In this document: piece after piece, positions 5,491 through 35,652 of the stretch | How positions within the stretch are numbered: the first letter of the stretch is position 1 | Layout of the letters: each line of letters starts with the position of its first letter | Source of the DNA: Cyanophora paradoxa CCMP329 | Taxonomy: Eukaryota > Plantae > Glaucophyta | DNA length: 64,000 nucleotides | Reading direction: 5' to 3' | Assembly (NCBI GenBank): GCA_004431415.1 | Contig: QPMI01000693.1 | Coordinates: 33,645-97,644, forward strand | Program-made: the position numbers and the translations under genes | Notes under the pieces: generated by a model | What the model was told of the DNA's origin: nothing | The model's database searches: none | The model's input: only the letters and a program-made list of their open reading frames with translations

Positions 5491-5508
5491 ATTTAACATT
5501 CATCTTTC

Positions 5509-6045: not shown

Positions 6046-6084
6046 TGGGTTGTGCTACTATCTGTTACAGTTTCTTTAATTAAC

Positions 6085-7236: not shown

Positions 7237-7700
7237 ATGAACGCTAACACGAAAATCGCAACTCCCTGTGAGAGACTCGGTAACCTGTGCAAATTTACAC
7301 CTGAGAAACATAATTGGGGGTCATTTCTCCATTGTCTCACTCCGAATACTGACAGCGAGACTGTCATAGAGTATTTCGACCATCAGATTACGGAAAGGAT
7401 TAATGATGATTTGAAGAAAGGAAAAAAACCGACCTACGCCGAATGCATTCAGCCAAACGAAATTACCCGTGTCTATCTGGATTATGACGGCTATGTGGAT
7501 CTTAAACCGGATGTTGCCGATAACTACAAGGAAGCCGATGAATTCATCCGTGAGATGCGCAACAGACTACACGAACTCACCGGTGCTACCATTGCTGTTT
7601 CAGTGCGTCATCGTCCTGTCCATTTCGTTAAGGAAGATGTGACCCAATTTAAGGTATCGGGGCATTTCGTCTTTACCGATCTGTGCTGTCGTCATGAAGA
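7237..7700 (+). pseudogene. Truncated 5' part of primase-helicase fused to GC-rich DNA
   Basis: AEP motifs RVYLDYD and SGHFVF, then the junction at 7700. Confidence 0.85.
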
Positions 7701-12731: not shown

Positions 12732-13670
12732 AGCTTAGCCTCGCAGTAGCGTTTAGAATTTCTTGATGTGTGCAATTGCAAATGTCTGATAATCAGACTA
12801 CCCTCCCACCGCTATCGGGTACATCCGAGATTACACTAAGCAGGTAAACGGGCTGATCGGCTGGGTGAAAGAAGAGATCCCCAATACAATGCGAGACGGC
12901 GGCATGGCTGCGACGTATTTGCGCGATGTGGCACGCCGAGGCCTCGAGTCCAGGGTAGACATCCGAACGTATGAGCCGCCGGTGACACATAGAGAAAGCC
13001 CGCGTTTTACCCTCGGCTTAGTTAAATTAAATTTTGTTAATAATTTACCTATATTTCTTTTATATTTTACGATAATTTAAGTGAAATTTATCTTTATTGT
13101 TGTCTTTTATGTGTGTATTTCGTATATATTACTATTAAATTGTTACTGAAATTTTTCTTAATTGTAATTCCGATGCAATTCACTCGAATCTATCGTAATC
13201 ATTTTAATCTGAGGTGGATCTTTAACTAATCTAAATTATATCTCGCCTCAGTTTAAAACGCGGGCTTTCTCTATGTGTGATATTACGCATTATCGTGTAT
13301 AATTATATGAAAAATATGAATATGCATTTTAACTTTAAATATTTGTAAATTATGTATTAATTTATATTGATAATATGTGTGAATTTATAATGGAGTTCCA
13401 TGGAAAAATAATAAAATGTTCCGTGGGATTAAATGCGATGATAATATTAATTTGATATGGTGCGTTTTCTTACGTAAAACAGCTATAAGTCGTCAGACAA
13501 GCTGCCTCGGCTGCGCCTGTGCTGTATGGAATGTGGGGAAATATTAAATATGAACATGTTGAGATTGTATGAATGATATAATGTTTTTGTTATAGGTTCT
13601 AAGTGTAAATGGTGCATTTATTCATTTGAAGGAGACCACCACCCATTTAATTGGAAATTTAAATATTAAC

Positions 13671-14345
13671 ACTGAGTTGCATTATGTCCAATTAAACAGT
13701 TGATATAATGGGATTCTGTTTTTTACCGTTATAAAATTGTATCTGATGTGCATTATGTCCTTTTAAACAATCATTGAGATTGCTGTGTATTTTGTTGGAA
13801 TACATGATTACTGCATTATGTCCAATTAAACAATTGATAAAATGGGATTCTGTTTTTTACTGTGATAAAATTGTGTCTGATGTGCATTATGTCCAATTAA
13901 ACAATCGTTGAGATATCGGATGAAAATAATTCACTCGTTACTGCATTATGTCCGATTAAACAATTGATGGAATATCGGATGAAAATAATTCACTCGTTAC
14001 TGCATTATGTCCAATTAAACAATCGATGAAATATCGGATGAAAATAATTCACTCGTTACTGCATTATGTCGAATTAAACAATTGATGGAATATGGGATGA
14101 AAATAATTCACTCGTTACTGCATTATGTCTAATTAAACAATTGATAAAATGGGATTCTGTTTTTTACCGTTATAAAATTGTGTCTGTGGTGTATTATGTC
14201 CAATTAAACATTTGAAGAGATTGACGAGATAAAAATAATAAAAAGTGTCACTGAGTTGCATTATGTCCAATTAAACAATTGATAAAATGGGATTCTGTTT
14301 TTTACCGTTACAAAATTGTATCTGATGTGCATTTTGTCGAATTGC
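13671..14345 (+). repeat. Sub-terminal tandem array, left arm
   Basis: Copy of 1965-2637. Confidence 0.88.
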
Positions 14346-17211
14346 TTGTATTAAACTGTTTTGCTCTTCTATGTATTCGATCTTAATTTAATGTGAAGGT
14401 TACGTTAATGTTTAAAAGTTACATGGAGTTACGTGATGGGTTACGTAGAGATTTTACGATTACTAAGACCATTCTCAGTGTTAAAATGGTTGATTTATCG
14501 TTATTTTGTCACTGTGAGTTACGGTTACGCAACTTTTTGAATTCTTTCTGAAAATTTGGCTGGGGTCTTTTTATAGGTGAAGGTCTAAAACTTGCGTAAC
14601 CACGTAACTTGCGTAACCTCTACGACATTATGGTGTCATTTCTCTATTATTTAGGTTACGTAACGTTTTTACTTACGTAACTTGTGTAACCTTAACGTAA
14701 CCTTGTTATTCTTACATTTAATCATTGTTATACTATGATATCATGATAACTAAAAATGATATATGATAATTGCTTATCTTTAACCACGTAGAGATGTTAG
14801 ATGATCACAATCGAACATCTTAAAGATCTTGCATATCTCATTTTCAGGATCGGTGACATACCATAGACGGTGTCGCTTATCAAATAAAGCGCCTTGGTTT
14901 TTAATGTATTTACGTAATGATGCCTGGGTAAATATACGTTTAGCTTCTATTTCAGGTAGTTTAGTTTTAATGTCACCAACGAAATATAGACGTTTCGGGC
15001 GATTATGATAATCAGGATCGATAACAGTGGGTTTATTGTAGGAAAGTGTTTTAAGATTCTATGAAACTTGTGTGAAACAAACCAATACCCTGTGTCATCA
15101 TCGAATTTAACGCCACAATCTTTGATATCAAATATTGATCTGAAACAAGTATTACGGAGGTTGCTTATATCCAATAAGAAAGCGCCGTAGTAATGGTGCG
15201 GCTCGTTTGTGGTGTTTCCGAAATAAATGAATTGATCCATTTGTAATCAGATGTTAAAAAGATTGTCAATTTTTCATAAATCCTTCTCTGTAAAGTTTTG
15301 GTTAAACAATTGGAAAGTTGCGGTTACACAACGGTTACACGGCGGTTACACTTGGTTACGCGGGTTACAGGTGAGGTTACGTAGTGATTTTTCGATAAAC
15401 CATACCATTTTCAGTGTGGTAATCGATAAAAATAACCATTTAGATACAGGGAGGTTACGGTTACGCAACTTTTTGAATTCTTTTTAAAAAAATGGCGGGG
15501 GGTCTTTTTATAGGTGGAGGTCTAAAACTTGCGTAACCGCGTAACTTGCGTAACCTGACGAGATTTATGGTGTCTTTTTGGTATTTTTAAGGTTACGTAA
15601 CGTTTTTTCTTACGTAACCTGTGTAACCTTAACGTAACCTTATTATAACATCTAAAATTCATCTGTTATCAAACGGTAGCGGTGTGATACATTTGATCGT
15701 GTTATGAGAAGCGATAGGATCCACTTGTGAAGCGATGAAAAATGAAGCAAATCTTAAAACTTAAACAATAAGTGAGATACAGCGGAATATACAATATGAA
15801 CGCGTTCGATATCCTGACCTACATTAAGAGTATTACCATATTCCCGTTCTCATCGATGCTGAGCTATCTTTAAAGAAGGCAAACCCTAACACTATCTGTA
15901 TTGTGCCGTATGATACTAAATATCGTGCGTATTTCGAAATGTTTCGTAAAAACTCGGGATATTCACCTAATACCCGTTTCGTCTGCTTTCTCACATTAGA
16001 GACTCACTATATTCTTGTTCCGGTTCTAACTGAAACATCGTGTAAATCGTTTATCTCTAAGATCATCTCTAAATGGTCTGCTAACCTTCCTACTGAATCT
16101 AATGAAACTAAGGAGTGCGTCATATGTCTCGATGATTGTAAAAGTAAAATACAAATGTCTTGTTTGACATGTTTCGCCAAAATGTGCAACACATGCTATT
16201 TACAGTTGAAGAGATCAGAGAGCTTTAAATGTCCGATCTGTCGTAATGACATAAAGACGCAACGTGATTAATGTAAAAATTGATGGAAGATAAAAGTTTT
16301 TCCGCTCTGACATGAAAGAGAAAATGAATAATGGACATTGGGTGACTTTGGCGACATTGCATAATAAGAAGATTGAGCTTATCCATCGGGAGATTGACCT
16401 TAAACACACAAAAAGACAAGACCATGAAAGACTACAAAATGTTAAACAGTATATTGATGCAATCGATGTAATGATAGATGTAGTGAATACAATCGCTAAA
16501 ATTAAGACCATGTGAATTTCATCGATGTTTTTTATTACTTCTGTGTGCGTTTTTCAAGCTTCTGTCTCAATCTGAATGTAATAACGCTACCATCATGTCG
16601 TGCCTTCCCCCTTTGAATCGCTTTCGATATTTCCCTGGGTGTGTTCTCATCGAAATCAATGAATCGGGAAACCTTCTTTTTAAACTCTCTCTGTAAATAT
16701 CCGGGTAGTTGGTTGATATTACACCCATCGTTTTTCTTAACAAGATTCTCGTAAATAATGCTACTGCGGTCATCCTGTGATAAATCGGGATTTTGAAGCT
16801 GTTCTATGAAAGCGTCGGGAATCCGTGAAGTCATTGTAGGTTACACTGTCTATTTTGGCGGGTTGTCATTTTTTGCATCGGTTACATAGAGGTTACAAGA
16901 AGTTACAGATGAGTTACGCAACAGGCTACGTAGATATTTCACAATTGCAAGACGACTTTCAGTGTTATAATACAGGAGATTTAGTATTTTTAACACTGGC
17001 GGTTACGGTTACGCAACTTTTTGAATTCTTTTTAAAAAATGGCGGGGGGGTCTTTCTCAGATAAAATAGTGAAAACTTGCGTAACCGCGTAACTTGCGTA
17101 ACCTCTACGACATTATGGTGTCATTTCTCTATTATTTTGGGTTACGTAACGTTTTTATCTACGTAACTTGTGTAACCTTAACGTAACCTTATTATTTAAC
17201 ATTCATCTTTC

Positions 17212-17748
17212 TTATTCATTTGCATATAACTTAGGCTCTAATGCTTCCATTCCGTCAAAAAATAGCTTAGTTCTACAAACTGAACACTTAGCATTCTCAT
17301 GTGATTCAAGTGAAGAGAGGAAACACTTAGGACAAACTAGTGTATTGCAAACGATACAGCCTTTATTACTTACATTGGTGTCAATGTTTTCAAGACAGAT
17401 AGGACATGTTTCATTCGGACTCTCAAAGTTTTCCCTCGCGAATGATTTAATAATGATTTCTACAAACCATTTGGTGTTCTCGTCATCAAGATATGGGACT
17501 AACATGTAACGATGTTTATATGATAATGCAAAACGAATAGGTTGAAGGGCATGATATCCCGCCTTTTCTTTCCATGCATCAAATACCCCTTTATTCTTGC
17601 GGTTCTGTTGAATAAAGTATATAATCTGTCTTTCGTTGGCTTTCATTAAGAATTTCGTATAATTCTTATCATTCAGTTTATCTGATGCATTGACTACGGG
17701 ATATGGCGAAATCGATTCTATAAGTTTCAATATATCGTTTAAATTCAT
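17212..17748 (-). CDS. RING-finger protein 2, left arm (right-arm copy 30352-30887 frameshifted)
   Basis: Same translation as 5509-6045. Confidence 0.8.
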   Translation of the reverse strand: MNLNDILKLIESISPYPVVNASDKLNDKNYTKFLMKANERQIIYFIQQNRKNKGVFDAWKEKAGYHALQPIRFALSYKHRYMLVPYLDDENTKWFVEIIIKSFARENFESPNETCPICLENIDTNVSNKGCIVCNTLVCPKCFLSSLESHENAKCSVCRTKLFFDGMEALEPKLYANE

Positions 17749-18936
17749 TGGGTTGTGCTACTATCTGTTACAGTTTCTTTAATTAACTTAGAGTTTCTCA
17801 ATGTCGAACACTCTTTTAAGAACGCCATCAATTCTTACAGCATGTGATTTAATCCCGAAAATGCGCTTAATCACGATTCCGATGGCTGTTTTTGAAATCG
17901 GAAAGTCTATAAGCTCTTCTATTTCAGCATGGATTACATCGGAAGGTGTATAATCACCGTCATTACTTAACCTGTAACTATGCATTAAATACGCTTCCAC
18001 ATGGGACATCTCATGTTGATATTCGCCCATCTCATGTTGATATTTGCCCATCCATGTTGATATTCGCCCATCTCATGTTGATATTTGCCCATCTCATGTT
18101 GATATTCGCCCATTTCCATTTCATCCGTTACAATTTCAATGTATTCGATGCCTTCCATGTTACACTTTACTGTTACAGATTGAAAATTTTGTTACAAGTT
18201 TTACGGTTGATGTCCAAAAATTGACGCTGTAAAACACAGAAAGGTATTTAAGGGTTTGACTTAAAAGAGAAGTGAAAGGGATATTATCTAACTCTTATAT
18301 AGAGGAATAATGGCGAATACTCGGAAATCAAACCAAGAGCTTTTCGCTATTCAGAATGGGGAACCTGTCCCACCGGTTGAAAGGAATATAAAGAAGGAAA
18401 AAACAGGATTGACTGAGGAAGAACGGGAAGAAAAGGCAAGAATAAGAAGGGCAAAAGATGCGGAGAGGAAGCGTGTAAAGTATCAGGAGATGAAACAACA
18501 AAGAATCGCAAATGGTGAGAAAACAGTTAATCCACCGGAGAGATTGGAAAAGATGGCTTTGTATATTCAGCGGCGATATGCGGAGGATGAAAAATTTAGG
18601 AATAGAAGGAAAGAGATAACGCGGAACTACCAAGAACGGAAACGCCTCGAAAAGGCTTCTAAGGTAACTGAGCAAGAGACGGCAAAGAAAGGGGACGACC
18701 TCGTAAATACAATACTTGTAATCCGATGCATCATCGGAAAAAATCGTAGCGAATTGATTGGTAGGAGGTGAAAAAATGACGCTTTACTTTCTCTTTTTTA
18801 TAACCTAAGCCAAATCATTAAAGTGCCGTGGGCAACCGAAAAGCATTTAAGGACTTGCTGAGAAGATAAGGTAAAAAGGAATTCATCAATTCCTCGGATT
18901 ATTTTCTTTGAGAAAGTTAAGAACCAATCGCTGAAA

Positions 18937-21815
18937 ATGAACGCTAACACGAAAATCGCAACTCCCTGTGAGAGACTCGGTAACCTGTGCAAATTTACAC
19001 CTGAGAAACATAATTGGGGGTCATTTCTCCATTGTCTCACTCCGAATACTGACAGCGAGACTGTCATAGAGTATTTCGACCATCAGATTACGGAAAGGAT
19101 TAATGATGATTTGAAGAAAGGAAAAAACCGACCTACGCCGAATGCATTCAGCCAAACGAAATTACCCGTGTCTATCTGGATTATGACGGCTATGTGGATC
19201 TTAAACCGGATGTTGCCGATAACTACAAGGAAGCCGATGAATTCATCCGTGAGATGCGCAACAGACTACACGAACTCACCGGTGCTACCATTGCTGTTTC
19301 AGTGCGTCATCGTCCTGTCCATTTCGTTAAGGAAGATGTGACCCAATTTAAGGTATCGGGGCATTTCGTCTTTACCGATCTGTGCTGTCGTCATGAAGAC
19401 ATCCCGAAATTCTTAAATGTAATCGGACTAACGCCAAAGGTGGATTATGACCCACTCGTTTATAAGACAAGGCAGGCGCTTGTTTGTCTGGGTAGTTGCA
19501 AGGGTAAATGGTTGGATTCCCAAAACAAGACTAAACGCGATGTTGATAAGGATGTAGTATTTACCAAATTCGTGGATTGTGAAACCATGTATGACAGCGA
19601 CTTTTTCGCGCAATTCACGGATTGCCCCACTGTGCTTATCGATGAATCAAACATGTATATGTTTGATGCTAACCTAACCCAAGATGAGAAAAACGAACGG
19701 TCGGCAAAGGCGGAAGTTGCAAAAGAGCAAATGAAGGAGGAAGGCAAGACTGAAACCAAGAAGGAGACGACCAAGAAGGAGACGACCAAGAAGGAGACCA
19801 CAACAAAGAAGAAGGAGACGGCGACGACAAGCAAAAAAACAACAAAGAAAACGGAGAGTGAAGAGCAGCCGGAGGAGTCTAATAACGTTTCATTTGAGAA
19901 ACTGAGAGAAGTCGTGATGGGTCTTAGTGCTGAAAGATCGGATACATACGAAGGTTGGCTTAATGTTGGTTTCGCAATCGCGAATGTTGGAGAGGAAAAC
20001 AATATACCACCCACGAAACAGGAGGCGCTGTTTCACGAATACTCCGAGAAAAGCCCTAAGTATGATTATGATGAATGCGCGAACAAATGGATGAGTATCC
20101 GCAAAGGCAAAAAATCCGGTTCCGAAAACAAAACTATAACTTTCGGCTCACTTGTGCATTATCTGAGAGAGGATAACCCGGACACGTATTATGGACTGTT
20201 TAAACCAAGCCGACAGTTTGCATTTATCGATGAGGAGGTGTGTATGGATGAGAATGACTATTCCGATGTTAGCGCCATGAATGATAAGATGGCTCAAATC
20301 AAATTAGAAATGGATAAGACGCTATTAAGTCAAGGTCTCCCACTTCCTGTTAGCAAGATCTGTAAAGCATTAATTGGCTACAAAGTGCGGTTTTCACGTG
20401 GTCTGTGGTTGATCCTGAATGAGAAAACCGGATTTTGGAAGGTAGATAATAAGTATGATGGTGGTATGATAACTCTTATCGGTGAGGTTGTCGGGAAAGC
20501 ATACTTAGACCGGAGAACCATTGGGCTACCAAGGCGGCAAAGGCGGAGGAACAGAGCGATAAAAAGGAATTCGCAGTAAAGGCAGCCGCCTGTGCAAAAA
20601 TTGCGCAAAAACTTAACTGTGGAGGTTACACGAAAGGACTTCTTACATATCTCTCTCATGACCTTTACGATGAGACATTTGCCGATAGGTTGGATTCAGT
20701 CGCGAATGTTGTTGGCTTTGACGATGGCGTTTATGATCTTAACACGTTTGAGTTCCGTAATGGTCGTTCTTCTGATATGATGACTAAGACAGTCTGTTAT
20801 AACTATGATATTCCGGTGGATCCTGAGAAGGTCAAACGACTCAATGACTTCTACATGGATATCACAGGTGACAATGTCGAACTTGCAAGATACATTAAGG
20901 CTGTTTATGCCAAGTCTCTAACGGGTAAAAATAACATGCAGTTTTTCTATATGTTTACGGGTATCGGCTCGAACGGAAAGAGCGTAATCGAAAATTTCAT
21001 GCATAAGACATTTGGCGACTACTCACGAAATATGAGCATTGGGATTTTCACGAAGGAGGATAAAGGTAATGGAATGATTCCGGAACTTGCGAATAAGCAA
21101 GGTGTTAGGCTCGTCCATACAAACGAACCAAACACGGGTAGCAAACTGTTGTCGGGACAAATCAAGAATTTCACAGGTTGTGATGAGATCACAGTAAGAA
21201 CCCTTTTCAGAGAACCCATTTCATTCGTTCCGATGTTTGTTATCGTCATCCTCTGTAATAATAACCTCGAATTTGATCAGCCCGACAATGCAGTAGCGCG
21301 CCGCTTCCGTTCTGTTCCATTTCAGCAGGTCTATGCCGTCGAACCTAAGCCCGGACAGAAGAAAGCGGATAAAGACCTTACCGGTTGTTGAATCCCGATA
21401 ATGACGTAAATGGTGAATGGCGCAGGGCAAACATGGAGATTCTCATAGACATGCTTAAAAACCATGATGTTAATCATATAATCGACCATCCGCCAAATGC
21501 ATCCTCGAACATTCCGCTAATTATCTCGCGGACAGCGACCGTATCGGCACATTCCTAAGGGACAACTACGCTTTGGCGGAGGATAACACGAAATACATAA
21601 TATGTGACGATCTGTTTAAGGATTGCTCAAATACGATGAGAGATGTTGATAGAAGAGCAGCGATAACAGGACGAGCTGTAAGCAATAAGGTGATGGAGGT
21701 GTTTAAGATCGGCTCGACTGTAAAAAAGGTTGGTGGAAAATCGAAGCGTGTTTATCTCGGTCTCACAAAGAACCGCGCTAACGATTTTGAAGACGATGAC
21801 GAAGATGTGGAATAA
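18937..21815 (+). CDS. AEP primase-PriCT2-D5N-SF3 helicase (D5-like), ~960 aa, split by four 1-bp deletions
   Basis: DxD (YLDYD), SxH, PriCT-2 (YEGWLNVGFAI...KYDYDEC..KW...ITFGSL), D5_N (GFDDGVYDL), Walker A GIGSNGKS, LVHTNEP, ILCNN. Confidence 0.9.
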
Positions 21816-21887
21816 AACTTATTGGAAAATATACTATTGATATCTTTTTTATGATCATGAACCGTAAGACTCGGTTCTTAATAGAAG

Positions 21888-22198
21888 GTTACTTTAAGGT
21901 TACTCGGAGTTACTCGGAGTTACTCAGAGAGGTTACGTAGCGGTTCCGTTAATTTGTTACCATTTTCAGTATTGATATACCGAATTTCTCTTTATTTCAC
22001 AGCTGTGAGTTACGGTTACGCAACTTTTTGAATTCTTTCTGAAAATTTGGAGGGGGGTCTTTTTATAGGTGAAGGTCTAAAACTTGCGTAACCGCGTAAC
22101 TTGCGTAACCTCTACGACATTATGGTGTCATTTCTCTATTATTTTGGGTTACGTAACGTTTCTCCTTGCGTAACTTGTGTAACCTTAACGTAACCTTC
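21888..22198 (+). repeat. Iteron module 4, candidate replication origin directly downstream of the primase-helicase (mirror ~25902-26212)
   Basis: Same core, about 70 bp after the helicase stop. The origin function is inferred. Confidence 0.8.
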
Positions 22199-22628
22199 TT
22201 ATTAATACATAGATATCACATGTTCTCTCTTGTTATCATTTGTTGGCGTTATAGAATGTAGGTAAGACATCGGAAAAAGTGAAAAAATGACATCTTAACT
22301 ACATATAAGGTTGTTGTGATATATTCATTTGATAATTAAGATGGCTTGCAAACTCCCGAACGCATCGACATGGGTGAATATCTCATTAAAGACCTTCCGG
22401 AAGAGTTAAAACCACTTGCACGCAAGATGGACTTAAAAGGAATACGAGAATACTATGAGAGAACCTACCCTGATTTATACAAGAAAAAACAGCGTGTCGA
22501 ACCATCGGAATGCATCACTGTTAAGGTTCCAAAAGGCGTAAAGGTCAGAATTCAGAGAATCTAACACGCTGAATAATATAAAAACAATTTTAACACATGA
22601 TTAATAGAAACAAAAAGAAACATTTAAA

Positions 22629-22946
22629 ATGAAGATCTTCTACGCTATCAGAGAGCATGACGCCCTTCTTTTTTATACGCGATTCTTTGAGAATCCGGAA
22701 AACAGATGTATGGATAAATTCGAAGACTTTTGTAAAGAGTTTACCCAAATCGCTTATGGTAACACTGAAATACGAAAACCATCAAGGAAGCAAAAATTAA
22801 AAGACCTTTTTCAAAACATGCTTTTGTCATTTGATGCTGATAATAGAAATACTGAATATCATAATACAGTCACGGGATCTGTTAGGGAACGTCTCCAAGA
22901 GAAATTAGCAAAACGAAGAATATCACAATGTGTAACCTCTTGTTAA
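22629..22946 (+). CDS. Hypothetical protein, 105 aa
   Basis: Intact in both arms. Confidence 0.6.
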   Translation: MKIFYAIREHDALLFYTRFFENPENRCMDKFEDFCKEFTQIAYGNTEIRKPSRKQKLKDLFQNMLLSFDADNRNTEYHNTVTGSVRERLQEKLAKRRISQCVTSC

Positions 22947-23392
22947 ACGCACTTTAAAAAGGGTCTTTTTGCAAACCTCACAGAATCGTGTAGGTTTATG
23001 TTTCAATCTACGCAAACAGCTACAATGTCCTGTATAGGTAGTTTTGAGAGTAAAAACTTTTAACAATTTGTTAAACGCACTTTAAAAAGGGTCTTTTTTG
23101 CAAATCTCCACAGAATTGTGTAGGTTTATGTTTCGACCTACGCAACAGCTACAATGTCCGACATGTCGCAAACAGTCCACACATCCATTTATGGTCGAAT
23201 CTAATGATGCTACATATGGATTCGTCGGAAAAGAGAATTAACATAATGCTCATAGAAAAACCTTAATATACTCTCTTTTTCCGGCTTACTAAAATAACAA
23301 ATGCACTTTTGGGGAATATTCCATTTTGTATGTGGAAATATCGCGAGAATTATTTATTTAAAAGAAAACTGATATATAATGGTTAAGCTAAA

Positions 23393-24748: not shown

Positions 24749-25150
24749 AAAAGCGATATTTCCACATACAAAATGGAATATTCCCCAAAAGTGCATTTGT
24801 TATTTTAGTAAGCCGGAAAAAGAGAGTATATTAAGGTTTTTCTATGAGCATTATGTTAATTCTCTTTTCCGACGAATCCATATGTAGCATCATTAGATTC
24901 GACCATAAATGGATGTGTGGACTGTTTGCGACATGTCGGACATTGTAGCTGTTGCGTAGGTCGAAACATAAACCTACACAATTCTGTGGAGATTTGCAAA
25001 AAAGACCCTTTTTAAAGTGCGTTTAACAAATTGTTAAAAGTTTTTACTCTCAAAACTACCTATACAGGACATTGTAGCTGTTTGCGTAGATTGAAACATA
25101 AACCTACACGATTCTGTGAGGTTTGCAAAAAGACCCTTTTTAAAGTGCGT

Positions 25151-25468
25151 TTAACAAGAGGTTACACATTGTGATATTCTTCGTTTTGCTAATTTCTCTT
25201 GGAGACGTTCCCTAACAGATCCCGTGACTGTATTATGATATTCAGTATTTCTATTATCAGCATCAAATGACAAAAGCATGTTTTGAAAAAGGTCTTTTAA
25301 TTTTTGCTTCCTTGATGGTTTTCGTATTTCAGTGTTACCATAAGCGATTTGGGTAAACTCTTTACAAAAGTCTTCGAATTTATCCATACATCTGTTTTCC
25401 GGATTCTCAAAGAATCGCGTATAAAAAAGAAGGGCGTCATGCTCTCTGATAGCGTAGAAGATCTTCAT
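25151..25468 (-). CDS. Hypothetical protein, 105 aa, right arm
   Basis: Mirror of 22629-22946. Confidence 0.6.
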   Translation of the reverse strand: MKIFYAIREHDALLFYTRFFENPENRCMDKFEDFCKEFTQIAYGNTEIRKPSRKQKLKDLFQNMLLSFDADNRNTEYHNTVTGSVRERLQEKLAKRRISQCVTSC

Positions 25469-25532
25469 TTTAAATGTTTCTTTTTGTTTCTATTAATCAT
25501 GTGTTAAAATTGTTTTTATATTATTCAGCGTG

Positions 25533-25757
25533 TTAGATTCTCTGAATTCTGACCTTTACGCCTTTTGGAACCTTAACAGTGATGCATTCCGATGGTTCGA
25601 CACGCTGTTTTTTCTTGTATAAATCAGGGTAGGTTCTCTCATAGTATTCTCGTATTCCTTTTAAGTCCATCTTGCGTGCAAGTGGTTTTAACTCTTCCGG
25701 AAGGTCTTTAATGAGATATTCACCCATGTCGATGCGTTCGGGGAGTTTGCAAGCCAT
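25533..25757 (-). CDS. Small hypothetical protein, 74 aa (left copy 22341-22564 with indel)
   Basis: MACKLPERID..., preceded by AAAAATGA. Confidence 0.55.
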   Translation of the reverse strand: MACKLPERIDMGEYLIKDLPEELKPLARKMDLKGIREYYERTYPDLYKKKQRVEPSECITVKVPKGVKVRIQRI

Positions 25758-26282
25758 CTTAATTATCAAATGAATATATCACAACAACCTTATATGTAGT
25801 TAAGATGTCATTTTTTCACTTTTTCCGATGTCTTACCTACATTCTATAACGCCAACAAATGATAACAAGAGAGAACATGTGATATCTATGTATTAATAAG
25901 AAGGTTACGTTAAGGTTACACAAGTTACGCAAGGAGAAACGTTACGTAACCCAAAATAATAGAGAAATGACACCATAATGTCGTAGAGGTTACGCAAGTT
26001 ACGCGGTTACGCAAGTTTTAGACCTTCACCTATAAAAAGACCCCCCTCCAAATTTTCAGAAAGAATTCAAAAAGTTGCGTAACCGTAACTCACAGCTGTG
26101 AAATAAAGAGAAATTCGGTATATCAATACTGAAAATGGTAACAAATTAACGGAACCGCTACGTAACCTCTCTGAGTAACTCCGAGTAACTCCGAGTAACC
26201 TTAAAGTAACCTTCTATTAAGAACCGAGTCTTACGGTTCATGATCATAAAAAAGATATCAATAGTATATTTTCCAATAAGTT

Positions 26283-29162
26283 TTATTCCACATCTTCGTC
26301 ATCGTCTTCAAAATCGTTAGCGCGGTTCTTTGTGAGACCGAGATAAACACGCTTCGATTTTCCACCAACCTTTTTTACAGTCGAGCCGATCTTAAACACC
26401 TCCATCACCTTATTGCTTACAGCTCGTCCTGTTATCGCTGCTCTTCTATCAACATCTCTCATCGTATTTGAGCAATCCTTAAACAGATCGTCACATATTA
26501 TGTATTTCGTGTTATCCTCCGCCAAAGCGTAGTTGTCCCTTAGGAATGTGCCGATACGGTCGCTGTCCGCGAGATAATTAGCGGAATGTTCGAGGATGCA
26601 TTTGGGCGGATGGTCGATTATATGATTAACATCATGGTTTTTAAGCATGTCTATGAGAATCTCCATGTTTGCCCTGCGCCATTCACCATTTACGTCATTA
26701 TCGGGATTCAACAACCCGGTAAGGTCTTTATCCGCTTTCTTCTGTCCGGGCTTAGGTTCGACGGCATAGACCTGCTGAAATGGAACAGAACGGAAGCGGC
26801 GCGCTACTGCATTGTCGGGCTGATCAAATTCGAGGTTATTATTACAGAGGATGACGATAACAAACATCGGAACGAATGAAATGGGTTCTCTGAAAAGGGT
26901 TCTTACTGTGATCTCATCACAACCTGTGAAATTCTTGATTTGTCCCGACAACAGTTTGCTACCCGTGTTTGGTTCGTTTGTATGGACGAGCCTAACACCT
27001 TGCTTATTCGCAAGTTCCGGAATCATTCCATTACCTTTATCCTCCTTCGTGAAAATCCCAATGCTCATATTTCGTGAGTAGTCGCCAAATGTCTTATGCA
27101 TGAAATTTTCGATTACGCTCTTTCCGTTCGAGCCGATACCCGTAAACATATAGAAAAACTGCATGTTATTTTTACCCGTTAGAGACTTGGCATAAACAGC
27201 CTTAATGTATCTTGCAAGTTCGACATTGTCACCTGTGATATCCATGTAGAAGTCATTGAGTCGTTTGACCTTCTCAGGATCCACCGGAATATCATAGTTA
27301 TAACAGACTGTCTTAGTCATCATATCAGAAGAACGACCATTACGGAACTCAAACGTGTTAAGATCATAAACGCCATCGTCAAAGCCAACAACATTCGCGA
27401 CTGAATCCAACCTATCGGCAAATGTCTCATCGTAAAGGTCATGAGAGAGATATGTAAGAAGTCCTTTCGTGTAACCTCCACAGTTAAGTTTTTGCGCAAT
27501 TTTTGCACAGGCGGCTGCCTTTACTGCGAATTCCTTTTTATCGCTCTGTTCCTCCGCCTTTGCCGCCTTGGTAGCCAATGGTTCTCCCGGTCTAAGTATG
27601 CTTTCCGACAACCTCACCGATAAGAGTTATCATACCACCATCATACTTATTATCTACCTTCCAAAATCCGGTTTTCTCATTCAGGATCAACCACAGACCA
27701 CGTGAAAACCGCACTTTGTAGCCAATTAATGCTTTACAGATCTTGCTAACAGGAAGTGGGAGACCTTGACTTAATAGCGTCTTATCCATTTCTAATTTGA
27801 TTTGAGCCATCTTATCATTCATGGCGCTAACATCGGAATAGTCATTCTCATCCATACACACCTCCTCATCGATAAATGCAAACTGTCGGCTTGGTTTAAA
27901 CAGTCCATAATACGTGTCCGGGTTATCCTCTCTCAGATAATGCACAAGTGAGCCGAAAGTTATAGTTTTGTTTTCGGAACCGGATTTTTTGCCTTTGCGG
28001 ATACTCATCCATTTGTTCGCGCATTCATCATAATCATACTTAGGGCTTTTCTCGGAGTATTCGTGAAACAGCGCCTCCTGTTTCGTGGGTGGTATATTGT
28101 TTTCCTCTCCAACATTCGCGATTGCGAAACCAACATTAAGCCAACCTTCGTATGTATCCGATCTTTCAGCACTAAGACCCATCACGACTTCTCTCAGTTT
28201 CTCAAATGAAACGTTATTAGACTCCTCCGGCTGCTCTTCACTCTCCGTTTTCTTTGTTGTTTTTTTGCTTGTCGTCGCCGTCTCCTTCTTCTTTGTTGTG
28301 GTCTCCTTCTTGGTCGTCTCCTTCTTGGTCGTCTCCTTCTTGGTTTCAGTCTTGCCTTCCTCCTTCATTTGCTCTTTTGCAACTTCCGCCTTTGCCGACC
28401 GTTCGTTTTTCTCATCTTGGGTTAGGTTAGCATCAAACATATACATGTTTGATTCATCGATAAGCACAGTGGGCAATCCGTGAATTGCGCGAAAAAGTCG
28501 CTGTCATACATGGTTTCACAATCCACGAATTTGGTAAATACTACATCCTTATCAACATCGCGTTTAGTCTTGTTTTGGGAATCCAACCATTTACCCTTGC
28601 AACTACCCAGACAAACAAGCGCCTGCCTTGTCTTATAAACGAGTGGGTCATAATCCACCTTTGGCGTTAGTCCGATTACATTTAAGAATTTCGGGATGTC
28701 TTCATGACGACAGCACAGATCGGTAAAGACGAAATGCCCCGATACCTTAAATTGGGTCACATCTTCCTTAACGAAATGGACAGGACGATGACGCACTGAA
28801 ACAGCAATGGTAGCACCGGTGAGTTCGTGTAGTCTGTTGCGCATCTCACGGATGAATTCATCGGCTTCCTTGTAGTTATCGGCAACATCCGGTTTAAGAT
28901 CCACATAGCCGTCATAATCCAGATAGACACGGGTAATTTCGTTTGGCTGAATGCATTCGGCGTAGGTCGGTTTTTTTCCTTTCTTCAAATCATCATTAAT
29001 CCTTTCCGTAATCTGATGGTCGAAATACTCTATGACAGTCTCGCTGTCAGTATTCGGAGTGAGACAATGGAGAAATGACCCCCAATTATGTTTCTCAGGT
29101 GTAAATTTGCACAGGTTACCGAGTCTCTCACAGGGAGTTGCGATTTTCGTGTTAGCGTTCAT
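26283..29162 (-). CDS. AEP-D5 primase-helicase, right arm, split by three 1-bp deletions at different sites
   Basis: Mirror copy. Combining both arms gives one 2883-nt ORF. Confidence 0.9.
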
Positions 29163-29340
29163 TTTCAGCGATTGGTTCTTAACTTTCTCAAAGAAAATAA
29201 TCCGAGGAATTGATGAATTCCTTTTTACCTTATCTTCTCAGCAAGTCCTTAAATGCTTTTCGGTTGCCCACGGCACTTTAATGATTTGGCTTAGGTTATA
29301 AAAAGAGAAAGTAAAGCGTCATTTTTTCACCTCCTACCAA

Positions 29341-29790
29341 TCAATTCGCTACGATTTTTTCCGATGATGCATCGGGATTACAAGTATTGTATTTACGAGG
29401 TCGTCCCCCTTTCTTTGCCGTCTCTTGCTCAGTTACCTTAGAAGCCTTTTCGAGGCGTTTCCGTTCTTGGTAGTTCCGCGTTATCTCTTTCCTTCTATTC
29501 CTAAATTTTTCATCCTCCGCATATCGCCGCTGAATATACAAAGCCATCTTTTCCAATCTCTCCGGTGGATTAACTGTTTTCTCACCATTTGCGATTCTTT
29601 GTTGTTTCATCTCCTGATACTTTACACGCTTCCTCTCCGCATCTTTTGCCCTTCTTATTCTTGCCTTTTCTTCCCGTTCTTCCTCAGTCAATCCTGTTTT
29701 TTCCTTCTTTATATTCCTTTCAACCGGTGGGACAGGTTCCCCATTCTGAATAGCGAAAAGCTCTTGGTTTGATTTCCGAGTATTCGCCAT
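29341..29790 (-). CDS. Basic coiled-coil AT-hook protein, right arm
   Basis: Intact mirror copy. Confidence 0.65.
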   Translation of the reverse strand: MANTRKSNQELFAIQNGEPVPPVERNIKKEKTGLTEEEREEKARIRRAKDAERKRVKYQEMKQQRIANGEKTVNPPERLEKMALYIQRRYAEDEKFRNRRKEITRNYQERKRLEKASKVTEQETAKKGGRPRKYNTCNPDASSEKIVAN

Positions 29791-31824
29791 TATTCCTCTA
29801 TATAAGAGTTAGATAATATCCCTTTCACTTCTCTTTTAAGTCAAACCCTTAAATACCTTTCTGTGTTTTACAGCGTCAATTTTTGGACATCAACCGTAAA
29901 ACTTGTAACAAAATTTTCAATCTGTAACAGTAAAGTGTAACATGGAAGGCATCGAATACATTGAAATTGTAACGGATGAAATGGAAATGGGCGAATATCA
30001 ACATGAGATGGGCAAATATCAACATGAGATGGGCGAATATCAACATGGGATGGGCAAATATCAACATGAGATGGGCGAATATCAACATGAGATGTCCATG
30101 TGGAAGCGTATTTAATGCATAGTTACAGGTTAAGTAATGACGGTGATTATACACCTTCCGATGTAATCCATGCTGAAATAGAAGAGCTTATAGACTTTCC
30201 GATTTCAAAAACAGCCATCGGAATCGTGATTAAGCGCATTTTCGGGATTAAATCACATGCTGTAAGAATTGATGGCGTTCTTAAAAGAGTGTTCGACATT
30301 GAGAAACTCTAAGTTAATTAAAGAAACTGTAACAGATAGTAGCACAACCCAATGAATTTAAACGATATATTGAAACTTATAGAATCGATTTCGCCATATC
30401 CCGTAGTCAATGCATCAGATAAACTGAATGATAAGAATTATACGAAATTCTTAATGAAAGCCAACGAAAGACAGATTATATACTTTATTCAACAGAACCG
30501 CAAGAATAAAGGGGTATTTGATGCATGGAAAGAAAAGGCGGGATATCATGCCCTTCAACCTATTCGTTTTGCATTATCATATAAACATCGTTACATGTTA
30601 GTCCATATCTTGATGACGAGAACACCAAATGGTTTGTAGAAATCATTATTAAATCATTCGCGAGGGAAAACTTTGAGAGTCCGAATGAAACATGTCCTAT
30701 CTGTCTTGAAAACATTGACACCAATGTAAGTAATAAAGGCTGTATCGTTTGCAATACACTAGTTTGTCCTAAGTGTTTCCTCTCTTCACTTGAATCACAT
30801 GAGAATGCTAAGTGTTCAGTTTGTAGAACTAAGCTATTTTTTGACGGAATGGAAGCATTAGAGCCTAAGTTATATGCAAATGAATAAGAAAGATGAATGT
30901 TAAATAATAAGGTTACGTTAAGGTTACACAAGTTACGTAGATAAAAACGTTACGTAACCCAAAATAATAGAGAAATGACACCATAATGTCGTAGAGGTTA
31001 CGCAAGTTACGCGGTTACGCAAGTTTTCACTATTTTATCTGAGAAAGACCCCCCGCCATTTTTTAAAAAGAATTCAAAAAGTTGCGTAACCGTAACCGCC
31101 AGTGTTAAAAATACTAAATCTCCTGTATTATAACACTGAAAGTCGTCTTGCAATTGTGAAATATCTACGTAGCCTGTTGCGTAACTCATCTGTAACTTCT
31201 TGTAACCTCTATGTAACCGATGCAAAAAATGACAACCCGCCAAAATAGACAGTGTAACCTACAATGACTTCACGGATTCCCGACGCTTTCATAGAACAGC
31301 TTCAAAATCCCGATTTATCACAGGATGACCGCAGTAGCATTATTTACGAGAATCTTGTTAAGAAAAACGATGGGTGTAATATCAACCAACTACCCGGATA
31401 TTTACAGAGAGAGTTTAAAAAGAAGGTTTCCCGATTCATTGATTTCGATGAGAACACACCCAGGGAAATATCGAAAGCGATTCAAAGGGGAAGGCACGAC
31501 ATGATGGTAGCGTTATTACATTCAGATTGAGACAGAAGCTTGAAAAACGCACACAGAAGTAATAAAAAACATCGATGAAATTCACATGGTCTTAATTTTA
31601 GCGATTGTATTCACTACATCTATCATTACATCGATTGCATCAATATACTGTTTAACATTTTGTAGTCTTTCATGGTCTTGTCTTTTTGTGTGTTTAAGGT
31701 CAATCTCCCGATGGATAAGCTCAATCTTCTTATTATGCAATGTCGCCAAAGTCACCAATGTCCATTATTCATTTTCTCTTTCATGTCAGAGCGGAAAAAC
31801 TTTTATCTTCCATCAATTTTTACA

Positions 31825-32301
31825 TTAATCACGTTGCGTCTTTATGTCATTACGACAGATCGGACATTTAAAGCTCTCTGATCTCTTCAACTGTAAATAG
31901 CATGTGTTGCACATTTTGGCGAAACATGTCAAACAAGACATTTGTATTTTACTTTTACAATCATCGAGACATATGACGCACTCCTTAGTTTCATTAGATT
32001 CAGTAGGAAGGTTAGCAGACCATTTAGAGATGATCTTAGAGATAAACGATTTACACGATGTTTCAGTTAGAACCGGAACAAGAATATAGTGAGTCTCTAA
32101 TGTGAGAAAGCAGACGAAACGGGTATTAGGTGAATATCCCGAGTTTTTACGAAACATTTCGAAATACGCACGATATTTAGTATCATACGGCACAATACAG
32201 ATAGTGTTAGGGTTTGCCTTCTTTAAAGATAGCTCAGCATCGATGAGAACGGGAATATGGGTAATACTCTTAATGTAGGTCAGGATATCGAACGCGTTCA
32301 T
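31825..32301 (-). CDS. RING-finger protein 1, right arm
   Basis: Intact mirror copy. Confidence 0.8.
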   Translation of the reverse strand: MNAFDILTYIKSITHIPVLIDAELSLKKANPNTICIVPYDTKYRAYFEMFRKNSGYSPNTRFVCFLTLETHYILVPVLTETSCKSFISKIISKWSANLPTESNETKECVICLDDCKSKIQMSCLTCFAKMCNTCYLQLKRSESFKCPICRNDIKTQRD

Positions 32302-32858
32302 ATTGTATATTCCGCTGTATCTCACTTATTGTTTAAGTTTTAAGATTTGCTTCATTTTTTCATCGCTTCACAAGTGGATCCTATCGCTTCTCATAACACG
32401 ATCAAATGTATCACACCGCTACCGTTTGATAACAGATGAATTTTAGATGTTATAATAAGGTTACGTTAAGGTTACACAGGTTACGTAAGAAAAAACGTTA
32501 CGTAACCTTAAAAATACCAAAAAGACACCATAAATCTCGTCAGGTTACGCAAGTTACGCGGTTACGCAAGTTTTAGACCTCCACCTATAAAAAGACCCCC
32601 CGCCATTTTTTTAAAAAGAATTCAAAAAGTTGCGTAACCGTAACCTCCCTGTATCTAAATGGTTATTTTTATCGATTACCACACTGAAAATGGTATGGTT
32701 TATCGAAAAATCACTACGTAACCTCACCTGTAACCCCGCGTAACCAAGTGTAACCGCCGTGTAACCGTTGTGTAACCGCAACTTTCCAATTGTTTAACCA
32801 AAACTTTACAGAGAAGGATTTATGAAAAATTGACAATCTTTTGAACATCTGATTACAA

Positions 32859-33320
32859 ATGGATCAATTCATTTATTTCGGAAACACCACAAACGAGCCG
32901 CACCATTACTACGGCGCTTTCTTATTGGATATAAGCAACCTCCGTAATACTTGTTTCAGATCAATATTTGATATCAAAGATTGTGGCGTTAAATTCGATG
33001 GTGACACAGGGTATTGGTTTGTTTCACACAAGTTTCATAGAATCTTAAAACACTTTCCTACAATAAACCCCACTGTTATCGATCCTGATTATCATAATCG
33101 CCCGAAACGTCTATATTTCGTTGGTGACATTAAAACTAAACTACCTGAAATAGAAGCTAAACGTATATTTACCCAGGCATCATTACGTAAATACATTAAA
33201 AACCAAGGCGCTTTATTTGATAAGCGACACCGTCTATGGTATGTCACCGATCCTGAAAATGAGATATGCAAGATCTTTAAGATGTTCGATTGTGATCATC
33301 TAACATCTCTACGTGGTTAA
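32859..33320 (+). CDS. DUF5710-like repeat protein, right arm
   Basis: Intact mirror copy with one D-to-G substitution. Confidence 0.6.
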   Translation: MDQFIYFGNTTNEPHHYYGAFLLDISNLRNTCFRSIFDIKDCGVKFDGDTGYWFVSHKFHRILKHFPTINPTVIDPDYHNRPKRLYFVGDIKTKLPEIEAKRIFTQASLRKYIKNQGALFDKRHRLWYVTDPENEICKIFKMFDCDHLTSLRG

Positions 33321-33756
33321 AGATAAGCAATTATCATATATCATTTTTAGTTATCATGATATCATAGTATAACAATGATTAAATGTAAGAATAACAAGGT
33401 TACGTTAAGGTTACACAAGTTACGTAAGTAAAAACGTTACGTAACCTAAATAATAGAGAAATGACACCATAATGTCGTAGAGGTTACGCAAGTTACGTGG
33501 TTACGCAAGTTTTAGACCTTCACCTATAAAAAGACCCCCAGCCAAATTTTCAGAAAGAATTCAAAAAGTTGCGTAACCGTAACTCACAGTGACAAAATAA
33601 CGATAAATCAACCATTTTAACACTGAGAATGGTCTTAGTAATCGTAAAATCTCTACGTAACCCATCACGTAACTCCATGTAACTTTTAAACATTAACGTA
33701 ACCTTCACATTAAATTAAGATCGAATACATAGAAGAGCAAAACAGTTTAATACAAG

Positions 33757-34431
33757 CAATTCGACAAAATGCACATCAGATACAATTTTGTAACGGTAAA
33801 AAACAGAATCCCATTTTATCAATTGTTTAATTGGACATAATGCAACTCAGTGACACTTTTTATTATTTTTATCTCGTCAATCTCTTCAAATGTTTAATTG
33901 GACATAATACACCACAGACACAATTTTATAACGGTAAAAAACAGAATCCCATTTTATCAATTGTTTAATTAGACATAATGCAGTAACGAGTGAATTATTT
34001 TCATCCCATATTCCATCAGTTGTTTAATTCGACATAATGCAGTAACGAGTGAATTATTTTCATCCGATATTTCATCGATTGTTTAATTGGACATAATGCA
34101 GTAACGAGTGAATTATTTTCATCCGATATTCCATCAATTGTTTAATCGGACATAATGCAGTAACGAGTGAATTATTTTCATCCGATATCTCAACGATTGT
34201 TTAATTGGACATAATGCACATCAGACACAATTTTATCACAGTAAAAAACAGAATCCCATTTTATCAATTGTTTAATTGGACATAATGCAGTAATCATGTA
34301 TTCCAACAAAATACACAGCAATCTCAATGATTGTTTAAAAGGACATAATGCACATCAGATACAATTTTATAACGGTAAAAAACAGAATCCCATTATATCA
34401 ACTGTTTAATTGGACATAATGCAACTCAGTG
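33757..34431 (-). repeat. Sub-terminal tandem array, right arm
   Basis: Reverse complement of 1965-2637. Confidence 0.88.
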
Positions 34432-35118
34432 TTAATATTTAAATTTCCAATTAAATGGGTGGTGGTCTCCTTCAAATGAATAAATGCACCATTTACACTT
34501 AGAACCTATAACAAAAACATTATATCATTCATACAATCTCAACATGTTCATATTTAATATTTCCCCACATTCCATACAGCACAGGCGCAGCCGAGGCAGC
34601 TTGTCTGACGACTTATAGCTGTTTTACGTAAGAAAACGCACCATATCAAATTAATATTATCATCGCATTTAATCCCACGGAACATTTTATTATTTTTCCA
34701 TGGAACTCCATTATAAATTCACACATATTATCAATATAAATTAATACATAATTTACAAATATTTAAAGTTAAAATGCATATTCATATTTTTCATATAATT
34801 ATACACGATAATGCGTAATATCACACATAGAGAAAGCCCGCGTTTTAAACTGAGGCGAGATATAATTTAGATTAGTTAAAGATCCACCTCAGATTAAAAT
34901 GATTACGATAGATTCGAGTGAATTGCATCGGAATTACAATTAAGAAAAATTTCAGTAACAATTTAATAGTAATATATACGAAATACACACATAAAAGACA
35001 ACAATAAAAGATAAATTTCACTTAAATTATCGTAAAATATAAAAGAAATATAGGTAAATTATTAACAAAATTTAATTTAACTAAGCCGAGGGGTAAAACG
35101 CGGGCTTTCTCTATGTGT

Positions 35119-35652
35119 CCGGTGTACGAAATCGAACACAGGGACGACATAAGCAGGGTTCGCAATGAACTTCGCAAGCTCTGGTGGGCGTTCGGCTCGC
35201 GCAAGAGCCCTATGACCTACCTACCCCAAGACGTTCAGAGGGTTATACTGGATCTCTTCCTGAATGCGGGCACTCGCATGGAGATCATCAATCGCCCGCT
35301 CAATATTTTGAAGCACTACTTCCAAGGCTTTGTCCACCACGCCAAAAACAAGGAGGATGAATGGGTGGTACCCTATGTCCCCCCATCGGATTTGATCCCT
35401 GAAGGATGGGACGAAGAACAACACAATATGGAAGAACGGTTCAAGAGATACAAGTATAGAAAACTGACGCCTGCCGGCCCACCGTACGGCCCACCGGCGC
35501 CCACGGCGGAGCAGCGCCAAGAGATACTGCGGGAGGGTCAGATTCGCAGGTGGATGGAGTACAGCAATGATCCGACGAGCTGGTCGCCAGACGAGGCCGA
35601 GCTGCGGAAGCGCGCGAGGTTGCCAGGCCCTCGGTATCCCGACCGCGAGTAG
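35119..35652 (+). pseudogene. 3' half of the interrupted ORF (reconstructed ~243 aa; weak F-box-like motif)
   Basis: PV-YEIEHRDD... continues the 5' half in frame and contains TYLPQDVQRVILDLFL. Confidence 0.8.

What the first reader, a model, noticed from the sequence alone, without database searches (positions are those of the whole stretch)
12979..35124. 6-bp TSD and in-frame restoration of the target ORF support a true insertion
The left flank reads ...TAT GAG CCG CCG GTG (YEPPV) and the right flank CCG GTG TAC GAA (PVYE). Deleting the element plus one CCGGTG joins 68 + 175 codons into one ~243-aa ORF. A fold-back read artefact would mirror the flank rather than continue it. A staggered 6-bp cut suggests a DDE/rve-type integrase, yet none is recognisable here, and the ACAC...GTGT ends match neither the Polinton AG..CT nor the retroviral TG..CA consensus.
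Basis: partly seen in the sequence, partly recalled or inferred. Interest (0 to 1): 0.75.

Follow-up and report, generated by a model that had tools for sequence, protein, structure and literature searches.

The report
Real insertion of integrase-less palindromic replicon
A 22-kb mirror-image DNA element in the alga Cyanophora paradoxa is a real insertion that split a multi-copy gene and duplicated its target site, and since it encodes no recognisable integrase or capsid it is likely a stripped-down relative of Polinton-like viruses, inserted by an integrase that its family supplies.

Summary
The insertion is real. Element 12985-35118 (22,134 bp) is flanked by CCGGTG on both sides. Contigs of two public runs carry the empty site, one seen from each side. 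A C. paradoxa paralogue (240 aa) aligns across the join with no gap. Two corrections. The duplication can be read equally as 4 bp with GACAC..GTGTC ends. The ends are not anomalous: an integrase-bearing Maverick has (AC)3A..T(GT)3 ends and punuivirus has ACC..GGT ends, both with 6-bp duplications. The element is two 10.36-kb arms (primase-helicase, two RING proteins, four iteron-like blocks) around a 1.4-kb endonuclease gene; 0 of 76 ORFs match an integrase or capsid profile. Contig depth suggests further arm copies and an excess of ends. Best reading (0.6): a fold-back, non-autonomous derivative of a Polinton-like replicon, inserted by its family's rve integrase. The integrase itself was not found, and no second insertion site was seen. 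The scan noted similar iteron blocks in other viruses of this genome, but no sequence look-alike.

The parts
12979..12984 (+). left copy of target-site duplication CCGGTG (or 12980-12983 in the 4-bp register)
35119..35124 (+). right copy of target-site duplication
12985..23344 (+). left arm, 10.36 kb, 37% GC
   Evidence: 99.7% identical to right arm, 3 mismatches and 24 gaps by BLAST
24753..35118 (-). right arm, inverted copy of left arm
23345..24752 (.). unique central spacer, 35% GC; one 1468-nt contig without differences in 3 of 3 DNA runs, lowest depth of all bins
   Evidence: tables 2 and 8
23393..24748 (+). 451-aa protein: 8 CxxC pairs (zinc ribbons, DUF4379/DUF723) and C-terminal nuclease domain; PHROGs endonuclease / homing endonuclease families; relatives in 598 of 605 matching viral stretches
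12985..13278 (.). terminal 294-bp unit bounded by a perfect 25-bp inverted repeat (12985-13009 / 13254-13278); mirrored at 34823-35118
   Evidence: fold z = -6.25
13670..14343 (.). subterminal satellite (59-bp and longer units); unit number differs in other copies
   Evidence: joints
14400..14760 (.). iteron-like block 1 (GTTAC run facing GTAAC run); likely origin, inferred
15350..15680 (.). iteron-like block 2
16880..17230 (.). iteron-like block 3
21880..22260 (.). iteron-like block 4, directly behind the primase-helicase gene
18937..21815 (+). primase-helicase gene (PriCT-2, D5_N, SF3 helicase; N-terminal AEP domain inferred only from position and recalled DxD / SxH motifs); split in the assembly by single-base indels that read contigs do not share; mirrored at 26283-29162 (-)
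   Evidence: table 4, 39, 40, 41 table 4, 47, 98
14780..15240 (-). 153-aa DUF5710-like ORF (intact at 32859-33320 +)
15796..16271 (+). 158-aa RING protein (intact at 31825-32301 -)
17212..17748 (-). 178-aa RING protein, paralogue of the 158-aa one (30% over 161 columns)
18310..18757 (+). 149-aa basic orphan ORF (other orphans: 67, 74, 99, 105, 123 aa)
12782..12984 (+). 5' part of the interrupted target gene (68 codons; intact copy at 1073-1276)
35125..35652 (+). 3' part of the interrupted target gene (175 codons + stop); C. paradoxa multi-copy orphan family
12077..12811 (-). YqaJ / lambda-type exonuclease frame of the multi-copy target island
35690..36406 (+). 238-aa ORF of the target island; exact match in EukProt, cluster of 8 with 7 named C. 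paradoxa members on different contigs; weak GNAT lead only
1..7700 (+). direct duplicate of 11712-19399: left flank, left junction and 6.4 kb of the left arm, cut inside the primase gene

Best explanation
This is a true insertion of a 22-kb capsid-less, integrase-less palindrome into a multi-copy gene of Cyanophora paradoxa, and it is likely a fold-back derivative of a Polinton-like primase-helicase replicon that was inserted by its family's rve-type integrase. Shown: boundaries, duplication, empty site, gene content. Inferred: (1) the parent is a linear element with ordinary short terminal repeats, one copy of this arm and a second half carrying integrase and probably capsid genes; (2) a template switch just behind the endonuclease gene replaced that second half with an inverted copy of the first, before integration (integrase then came in trans) or after it (integrase lost in place); the data cannot tell these apart; (3) the integrase bound the A-C..G-T ends, made a staggered cut, and repair doubled the site; (4) the primase-helicase and iteron blocks would let an excised copy replicate.
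For: Empty site in runs X17 and X2; paralogue P0009 residues 1-58 and 60 onward align to the two halves without a gap (whole join 48% over 195 columns, E 3e-53). Clean, symmetric ends with no lost or added base. End motif agrees at 6 of 7 positions with a Maverick motif (PMC8097293); rve integrases give 6-bp duplications in PLVs and tyrosine recombinases none (PMC12220804 section 10); mavirus 5-6 bp, EMALEs mostly 3-5 bp, so either register fits rve. Primase-SF3 fusions and RING proteins are common PLV/virophage cargo, and TIR- and TSD-retaining elements without core genes are reported. C. paradoxa EVEs are in published PLV sets. Depth in X2: centre 23, arm interior 138-164, window-type end 83 plus a variant end contig 264, as expected if other copies have two ends per interior; a contig with foreign sequence inward of 34583 may mark a roughly 540-bp TIR.
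Against: The depth argument rests on single contigs of one run, and the tool warns that depth is no copy number; short end-only relics would give the same excess. A simple fold-back predicts that the spacer is parental and so as deep as the arms, yet it is 6-10 times shallower, so the endonuclease cassette must be private to this copy's lineage. The nearest helicase relative with known context (27% identity) sits among giant-virus-type genes (Rpb5, capping enzyme). No close relative in viral or metagenome contigs.
Confidence: 0.6

Rival explanations
1. Relic of a giant endogenous virus: the arms are its 10-kb terminal repeats and nearly all of the interior was deleted, as for punuivirus relics in Chlamydomonas; integration by the virus's retroviral-like integrase.
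For: Punuivirus has 10.8/14.8-kb TIRs with a variable satellite, ACC..GGT ends, 6-bp TSDs, 48-kb and 5.3-kb relics with intact ends, and sits in an interspersed repeat (10.1101/2024.09.03.611062 passages); GEVEs are reported in C. paradoxa (PMC12344493); helicase relative P0021 lies among giant-virus-type genes; end-only relics would explain the excess of ends.
Against: A primase-helicase with four iteron-like blocks looks like a replicon, not a terminal repeat; ends are ACA..TGT, not ACC..GGT; the spacer is at the lowest depth, so no full virus carrying it is evident; 27% identity does not place the helicase.
Confidence: 0.17
2. Integrase-free homing: the central endonuclease makes a staggered cut in the target gene and the primase-polymerase copies or the host ligates the linear element into the break; fill-in gives the duplication.
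For: The element carries exactly a primase-SF3 gene and a putative homing endonuclease and no integrase; this mechanism is proposed as a hypothesis in 10.64898/2026.10.13.758929 section 13; the target is a multi-copy, probably virus-derived gene.
Against: Precise symmetric ends with a Maverick-like motif are typical of integrase products; most arm copies lack this endonuclease (depth) yet exist; empty target copies far outnumber filled ones; the hexamer occurs 10 times inside the element; cleavage activity untested.
Confidence: 0.1
3. The family is naturally palindromic: a 10.4-kb hairpin-ended linear replicon whose head-to-head dimer integrates; the endonuclease cassette landed on the apex (a 3-bp GCG duplication of a self-complementary apex is possible) and stabilised this copy.
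For: Spacer borders coincide with the endonuclease cassette (48 bp before ATG, 4 bp after the stop); arm depth stays flat up to the inner end; apex letters.
Against: The centre contig starts at 23315, not two bases later as a shared perfect apex would cause; no strand-change joint at the apex was listed (tables partly cut); ends appear deeper than interiors.
Confidence: 0.08
4. The insertion is real but the right arm is an assembly artefact that overwrote a different second half holding the integrase.
For: The assembly has many homopolymer errors and an unverified 11.7-kb tandem duplication; the centre contig has only 30 letters in the arm, one short of the tool's bridging rule, and its 30-letter right overhang was not itself displayed.
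Against: In 3 of 3 short-read runs from three different years the centre is one contig bounded at both arm borders with a 30-letter overhang each side; arms differ by 3 substitutions at which left arm and duplicate agree.
Confidence: 0.05

Closest known systems
Polinton-like viruses / virophages with primase-SF3 replicase and rve integrase (PMC12220804, PMC8547959, 10.64898/2026.07.28.741278, 10.64898/2026.06.19.733378; passages, one full section)
   Same: 15-30 kb, low GC in a GC-rich host, terminal inverted repeats, short TSD, primase-helicase, RING proteins, endonuclease; defective copies that keep TIRs and TSDs are reported
   Different: no capsid module, no integrase; inverted repeats make up 94% of the element and duplicate the replicase
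Mavericks/Polintons of Monopterus albus, end motif 5'-(AC)3A//T(GT)3-3' (PMC8097293, passages)
   Same: end motif (6 of 7 positions), 6-bp TSD
   Different: no pPolB, integrase or morphogenesis genes; protist host
Punuivirus GEVE and its relics in Chlamydomonas reinhardtii (10.1101/2024.09.03.611062 passages; PMC12993054 passages)
   Same: about 10-kb TIRs with a variable satellite, AC..GT termini, 6-bp TSD, insertion into an interspersed repeat, relics without integrase
   Different: no full virus seen; replicase and iteron blocks inside the arms; third base of the end differs
Mobile AEP-SF3 replicases and transpoviron-like elements (10.64898/2026.10.13.758929, section 13 read)
   Same: capsid-less primase-SF3 module next to an endonuclease, bracketed by repeats, no integration gene; one cited example is a C. 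paradoxa contig (QPMI01_83; accession prefix linked to the species)
   Different: here a base-resolved insertion with empty site, and a near-total palindrome; whether QPMI01_83 is related could not be checked (figure not held)

Membership tests
Polinton/Maverick | protein-primed PolB | tested here: not met
   0 of 76 ORFs of 50+ aa in centre and right arm hit a PolB profile; no ORF of that size
Polinton/Maverick | rve integrase in cis | tested here: not met
   unassigned ATG ORFs are 153 aa or shorter
Polinton/Maverick | TIRs with conserved end motif and 6-bp TSD | tested here: inconclusive
   TIR and 6 of 7 match to the (AC)3A motif, but the 4-bp register is equally consistent
Polinton-like virus / virophage | major and minor capsid protein and packaging ATPase | tested here: not met
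   no hits; these libraries are weak for PLV capsids (own knowledge), but all ATG ORFs over 200 aa are otherwise assigned
Polinton-like virus / virophage | pPolB or primase-helicase replicase | tested here: met
   PriCT-2, D5_N, DUF5906, TIGR01613; AEP catalytic domain not confirmed
Polinton-like virus / virophage | integrase (rve or tyrosine recombinase) | tested here: not met
Defective derivative of a PLV | a complete capsid- and integrase-encoding parent with the same ends in the genome | not testable with these tools
   no genome held; only depth hints
Punuivirus-type GEVE relic | 10-15 kb TIRs with satellite and 6-bp TSD | tested here: met
Punuivirus-type GEVE relic | ACC..GGT termini | tested here: not met
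   ACA..TGT
Punuivirus-type GEVE relic | sequence maps onto a full giant-virus insertion | not testable with these tools
   no genome held
Transpoviron (definition partly recalled) | superfamily 1 helicase, about 7-kb linear episome of a giant virus | tested here: not met
   helicase is D5/SF3 type; 22 kb; integrated

The most novel reading that the evidence does not exclude
A family of capsid-less, integrase-less primase-helicase replicons that live as satellites of algal DNA viruses: they replicate from their own iteron origins, form giant palindromes, and insert with precise ends into virus-derived genes, either by a borrowed Maverick-type integrase or by their own endonuclease. This locus, with its empty site known to the base, would be the first direct test case for the proposed primase-plus-homing-endonuclease mobility.
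Probability: 0.18. Interest if true: 0.8.

Novelty: new variant of a known kind. Interest (0 to 1): 0.45.

Why it matters
It removes the artefact objection for an odd 22-kb palindrome and gives a base-resolved pre- and post-insertion pair in a cultured alga. AC..GT ends with a short duplication now appear in a fish Maverick, a green-algal giant virus and a glaucophyte element, which points to one integrase type and says where to look for it. The locus also lets two open ideas be tested: how capsid-less primase-helicase modules move, and whether Polinton-like viruses throw off fold-back defective genomes. The duplication and integration chemistry themselves are ordinary; the architecture is the unusual part.

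Tried and rejected
No whole genome held. Helicase: no related loci in viral contigs (0 of 11 pattern matches confirmed) or metagenome contigs (0 of 99); alignment query too divergent to run. Terminal 20-mer: 0 hits in viral contigs, 2 in metagenome contigs, both chance 21-22-nt matches without further similarity. Word-index protein searches found nothing for the target half or the primase middle part. 9 of 10 window proteins looked up by exact sequence are not in the collection. None of 79 endonuclease loci shares an arm gene, and 1 of 79 has an inverted repeat of 200 bp or more, at 74% identity. Single-sequence fold of the primase N-terminus failed (pLDDT 36), so no fold search was run; no BLAST match of that part to P0021. 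Atlas: no usable hit for the 105-aa orphan; only a weak GNAT lead for the flank ORF. No solved-structure match for the endonuclease. No RNA holder listed; run X21 covered 4 of 30 bins, all in the flank; no inference on expression. Two of the six representative hits to the target half (P0011, P0014) are repetitive proteins of other origin and were set aside. The inner-end continuation and the outer flanks of other copies were the aim but fell among the 34 loose ends not shown. Rejected: tyrosine-recombinase integration (gives no TSD); retroviral TG..CA register (shifting the boundary by 2 breaks the terminal repeat); fold-back read artefact for the junctions. Not-in-print searches: (listings only) showed no description of this element; subscription papers, the journal version of the punuivirus paper and bioRxiv supplements or figures were not visible and could bear on this.
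Full report
Observation. The element runs from 12985 to 35118 (22,134 bp). CCGGTG precedes it (12979-12984) and follows it (35119-35124); it begins ACACATAG and ends CTATGTGT. Such an abutting match of 6 bp or more arose in 0.25% of 200,000 random draws from the flanks. The two halves of the flanking ORF give 243 codons without a stop when the left half is taken from the duplicated copy at 1073-1276; the copy at 12782-12984 is one base short, and contigs of runs X1, X2 and X17 carry an extra G at 12816, so this is one of many homopolymer errors in the assembly.

In run X17 a contig runs through the left flank to 12984 and goes on with letters matching 35125-35154 at 28 of 30 positions. In run X2 a contig on the right flank has, before 35119, exactly 12949-12978. 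Both hold one CCGGTG. A search of 1.84 billion representatives with the right half gave 6 hits; four are C. paradoxa proteins. The best, P0009 (240 aa), aligns by residues 1-58 to the left half at 69% and from residue 60 to the right half at 39%, without a gap at the join. The empty sites are probably paralogous copies: the covering contig differs from the window at three positions and is 14-25 times deeper than the central cassette. No listed contig bridged a filled junction by 31 letters on both sides, but both tables were cut.

Host and target. The ORF downstream of the target (35690-36403) is an exact EukProt entry in a cluster of 8, 7 of them named C. paradoxa genes on different contigs. 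The target gene lies in a small 53-59% GC island with a YqaJ exonuclease frame that is very deep in the runs. It is a multi-copy, probably virus-derived element; I could not identify it further.

First correction: the duplication length is not fixed. The hexamer starts with C and ends with G, so moving both boundaries out by one base keeps a perfect terminal repeat (GACAC..GTGTC), leaves a 4-bp duplication and gives the same empty site. The internal copy of the 25-bp end motif (13254-13278) begins at ACAC and has C, not G, outside it, which mildly favours 6 bp. Only other insertion sites can decide.

Second correction: the ends are not foreign to rve integrases. Mavericks of Monopterus albus have 5'-(AC)3A//T(GT)3-3' ends (PMC8097293, passages); ours agree at 6 of 7 positions. 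The punuivirus insertion in Chlamydomonas has ACC..GGT ends, 6-bp duplications, 10.8 and 14.8-kb TIRs with a variable satellite, and 48-kb and 5.3-kb relics; the preprint found no integrase (10.1101/2024.09.03.611062, passages), and a later review says a retroviral-like one, possibly virophage-derived, was proposed (PMC12993054, passages). In PLVs rve goes with 6-bp duplications and tyrosine recombinases with none (PMC12220804, section 10); mavirus gives 5-6 bp (10.1101/068312, passages) and EMALEs mostly 3-5 bp (PMC8547959, passages). Either register therefore fits rve.

Anatomy. Two arms of 10.36 kb are 99.7% identical (3 mismatches, 24 gaps) around a 1,408-bp spacer. Each arm holds a terminal 294-bp unit bounded by a 25-bp inverted repeat, a satellite, a DUF5710-like ORF, two paralogous RING proteins, small orphans and a primase-helicase with PriCT-2, D5_N and SF3 domains. 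Its N-terminal AEP domain is inferred from position and recalled motifs only; fold and pairwise tests failed. Four blocks of about 300 bp, 81-92% alike, carry GTTAC runs facing GTAAC runs: 56 of 80 such pentamers lie in 1,424 of 11,768 bp, and one block follows the helicase gene directly. Reading them as origins is inference, prompted by earlier unchecked notes on other viruses in this genome. The spacer encodes a 451-aa zinc-ribbon endonuclease of a family widespread in viral contigs. None of 76 stop-to-stop ORFs of 50 aa or more in centre and right arm hits an integrase, recombinase, polymerase or capsid profile, and all ATG ORFs over 200 aa are otherwise assigned.

Is the palindrome real? 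In X1, X2 and X17 the spacer is one 1,468-nt contig with no differences, starting 30 nt inside the left arm and overhanging the other border by 30 nt. That is what two identical arms converging on a unique spacer give in a 31-mer graph (inference), though it is one letter short of the tool's bridging rule and the right overhang was not displayed. The three arm substitutions are shared by the left arm and its duplicate.

Other copies. Long arm contigs are 6.3-9.7 times deeper than the spacer in the three runs and many differ from the window at scattered positions, so several more arms exist without this endonuclease. In X2 the window-type end contig has depth 83 and a variant end contig 264, against 138-164 for the interior and 23 for the spacer. 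Taken at face value other copies have at least two ends per interior, as in ordinary TIR elements; one contig has foreign sequence inward of 34583, a candidate border of a roughly 540-bp TIR. These are single contigs of one run and the tool warns against reading depth as copy number. What follows the inner end in other copies was not displayed.

Mechanism. I favour (0.6) a fold-back derivative of a Polinton-like primase-helicase element, inserted by the family's rve integrase, in trans or before the integrase half was overwritten. Elements that keep TIRs and TSDs after losing core genes are reported in Halocafeteria (10.64898/2026.07.28.741278, passages), primase-SF3 fusions are common PLV replicases (10.64898/2026.06.19.733378, passages; PMC10120064, passages), and C. 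paradoxa EVEs appear in published sets (supplement search). Against it: no parent seen, the spacer is shallower than a simple fold-back predicts, and the nearest helicase with context (27%) lies among giant-virus-type genes. Rivals: giant-virus TIR relic (0.17; GEVEs are reported in this alga, PMC12344493, passages); endonuclease-driven homing with the primase, proposed as a hypothesis in 10.64898/2026.10.13.758929 (section 13 read) (0.10); natural head-to-head dimer (0.08); misassembled right arm (0.05). PMC13692296 (passages) added nothing on integration.

Verdict. Observation confirmed and strengthened; integration chemistry probably ordinary; architecture unusual and not found in the literature searches (listings only). 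It fails membership of Polintons and PLVs on capsid and integrase, but most likely works like their defective derivatives. New variant of a known kind; interest 0.45.

Noticed in passing
window 1-7700 and 11712-19399: Direct duplication (99.8%, 16 gaps, no mismatches) of left flank, junction and 6.4 kb of the left arm, cut inside the primase gene and joined to a 70% GC block; real tandem duplication or assembly error not resolved (window-type end depth in X2 is 3.6 times the spacer, compatible with three ends).
   Followed up: partly
window 23330-23347 and 24749-24767: The arm ends at the spacer can be read as a self-complementary apex with a 3-bp GCG duplication around the endonuclease cassette.
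   Followed up: partly
window 14400-14760, 15350-15680, 16880-17230, 21880-22260 (and mirrors): Four iteron-like blocks per arm, one directly behind the primase-helicase; same layout as noted earlier for PLVs of this genome.
   Followed up: partly
window 12985-13278 and 34823-35118: Terminal 294-bp unit with 25-bp perfect inverted repeats; a deeper variant in run X2 replaces the 118 bp next to the inner repeat.
   Followed up: partly
window 11850-12984 and 35119-36640: Very high-copy island (YqaJ exonuclease, orphan target family, 238-aa GNAT-like ORF, 93-bp tandem repeat, ending at an (AT)54 run); gene neighbours conserved on another contig (tig00020951 g16426/g16427). Identity unknown.
   Followed up: partly
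window 43661-49081: Apparently intact non-LTR retrotransposon: 415-aa ORF followed by a 1390-aa endonuclease-reverse transcriptase ORF.
   Followed up: no
window 36743-37215 and 37735-38221: 494-bp repeat at 94% identity, each copy starting next to a TA run.
   Followed up: no
window 8105-8752 (-) and 10123-11286 (+): Two orphan ORFs in the GC-rich block share a short motif-like stretch by eye; no PHROGs hits.
   Followed up: no
window 18007-18113: 21-bp tandem repeat inside a 123-codon frame on the minus strand (MGEYQHE-like units).
   Followed up: no
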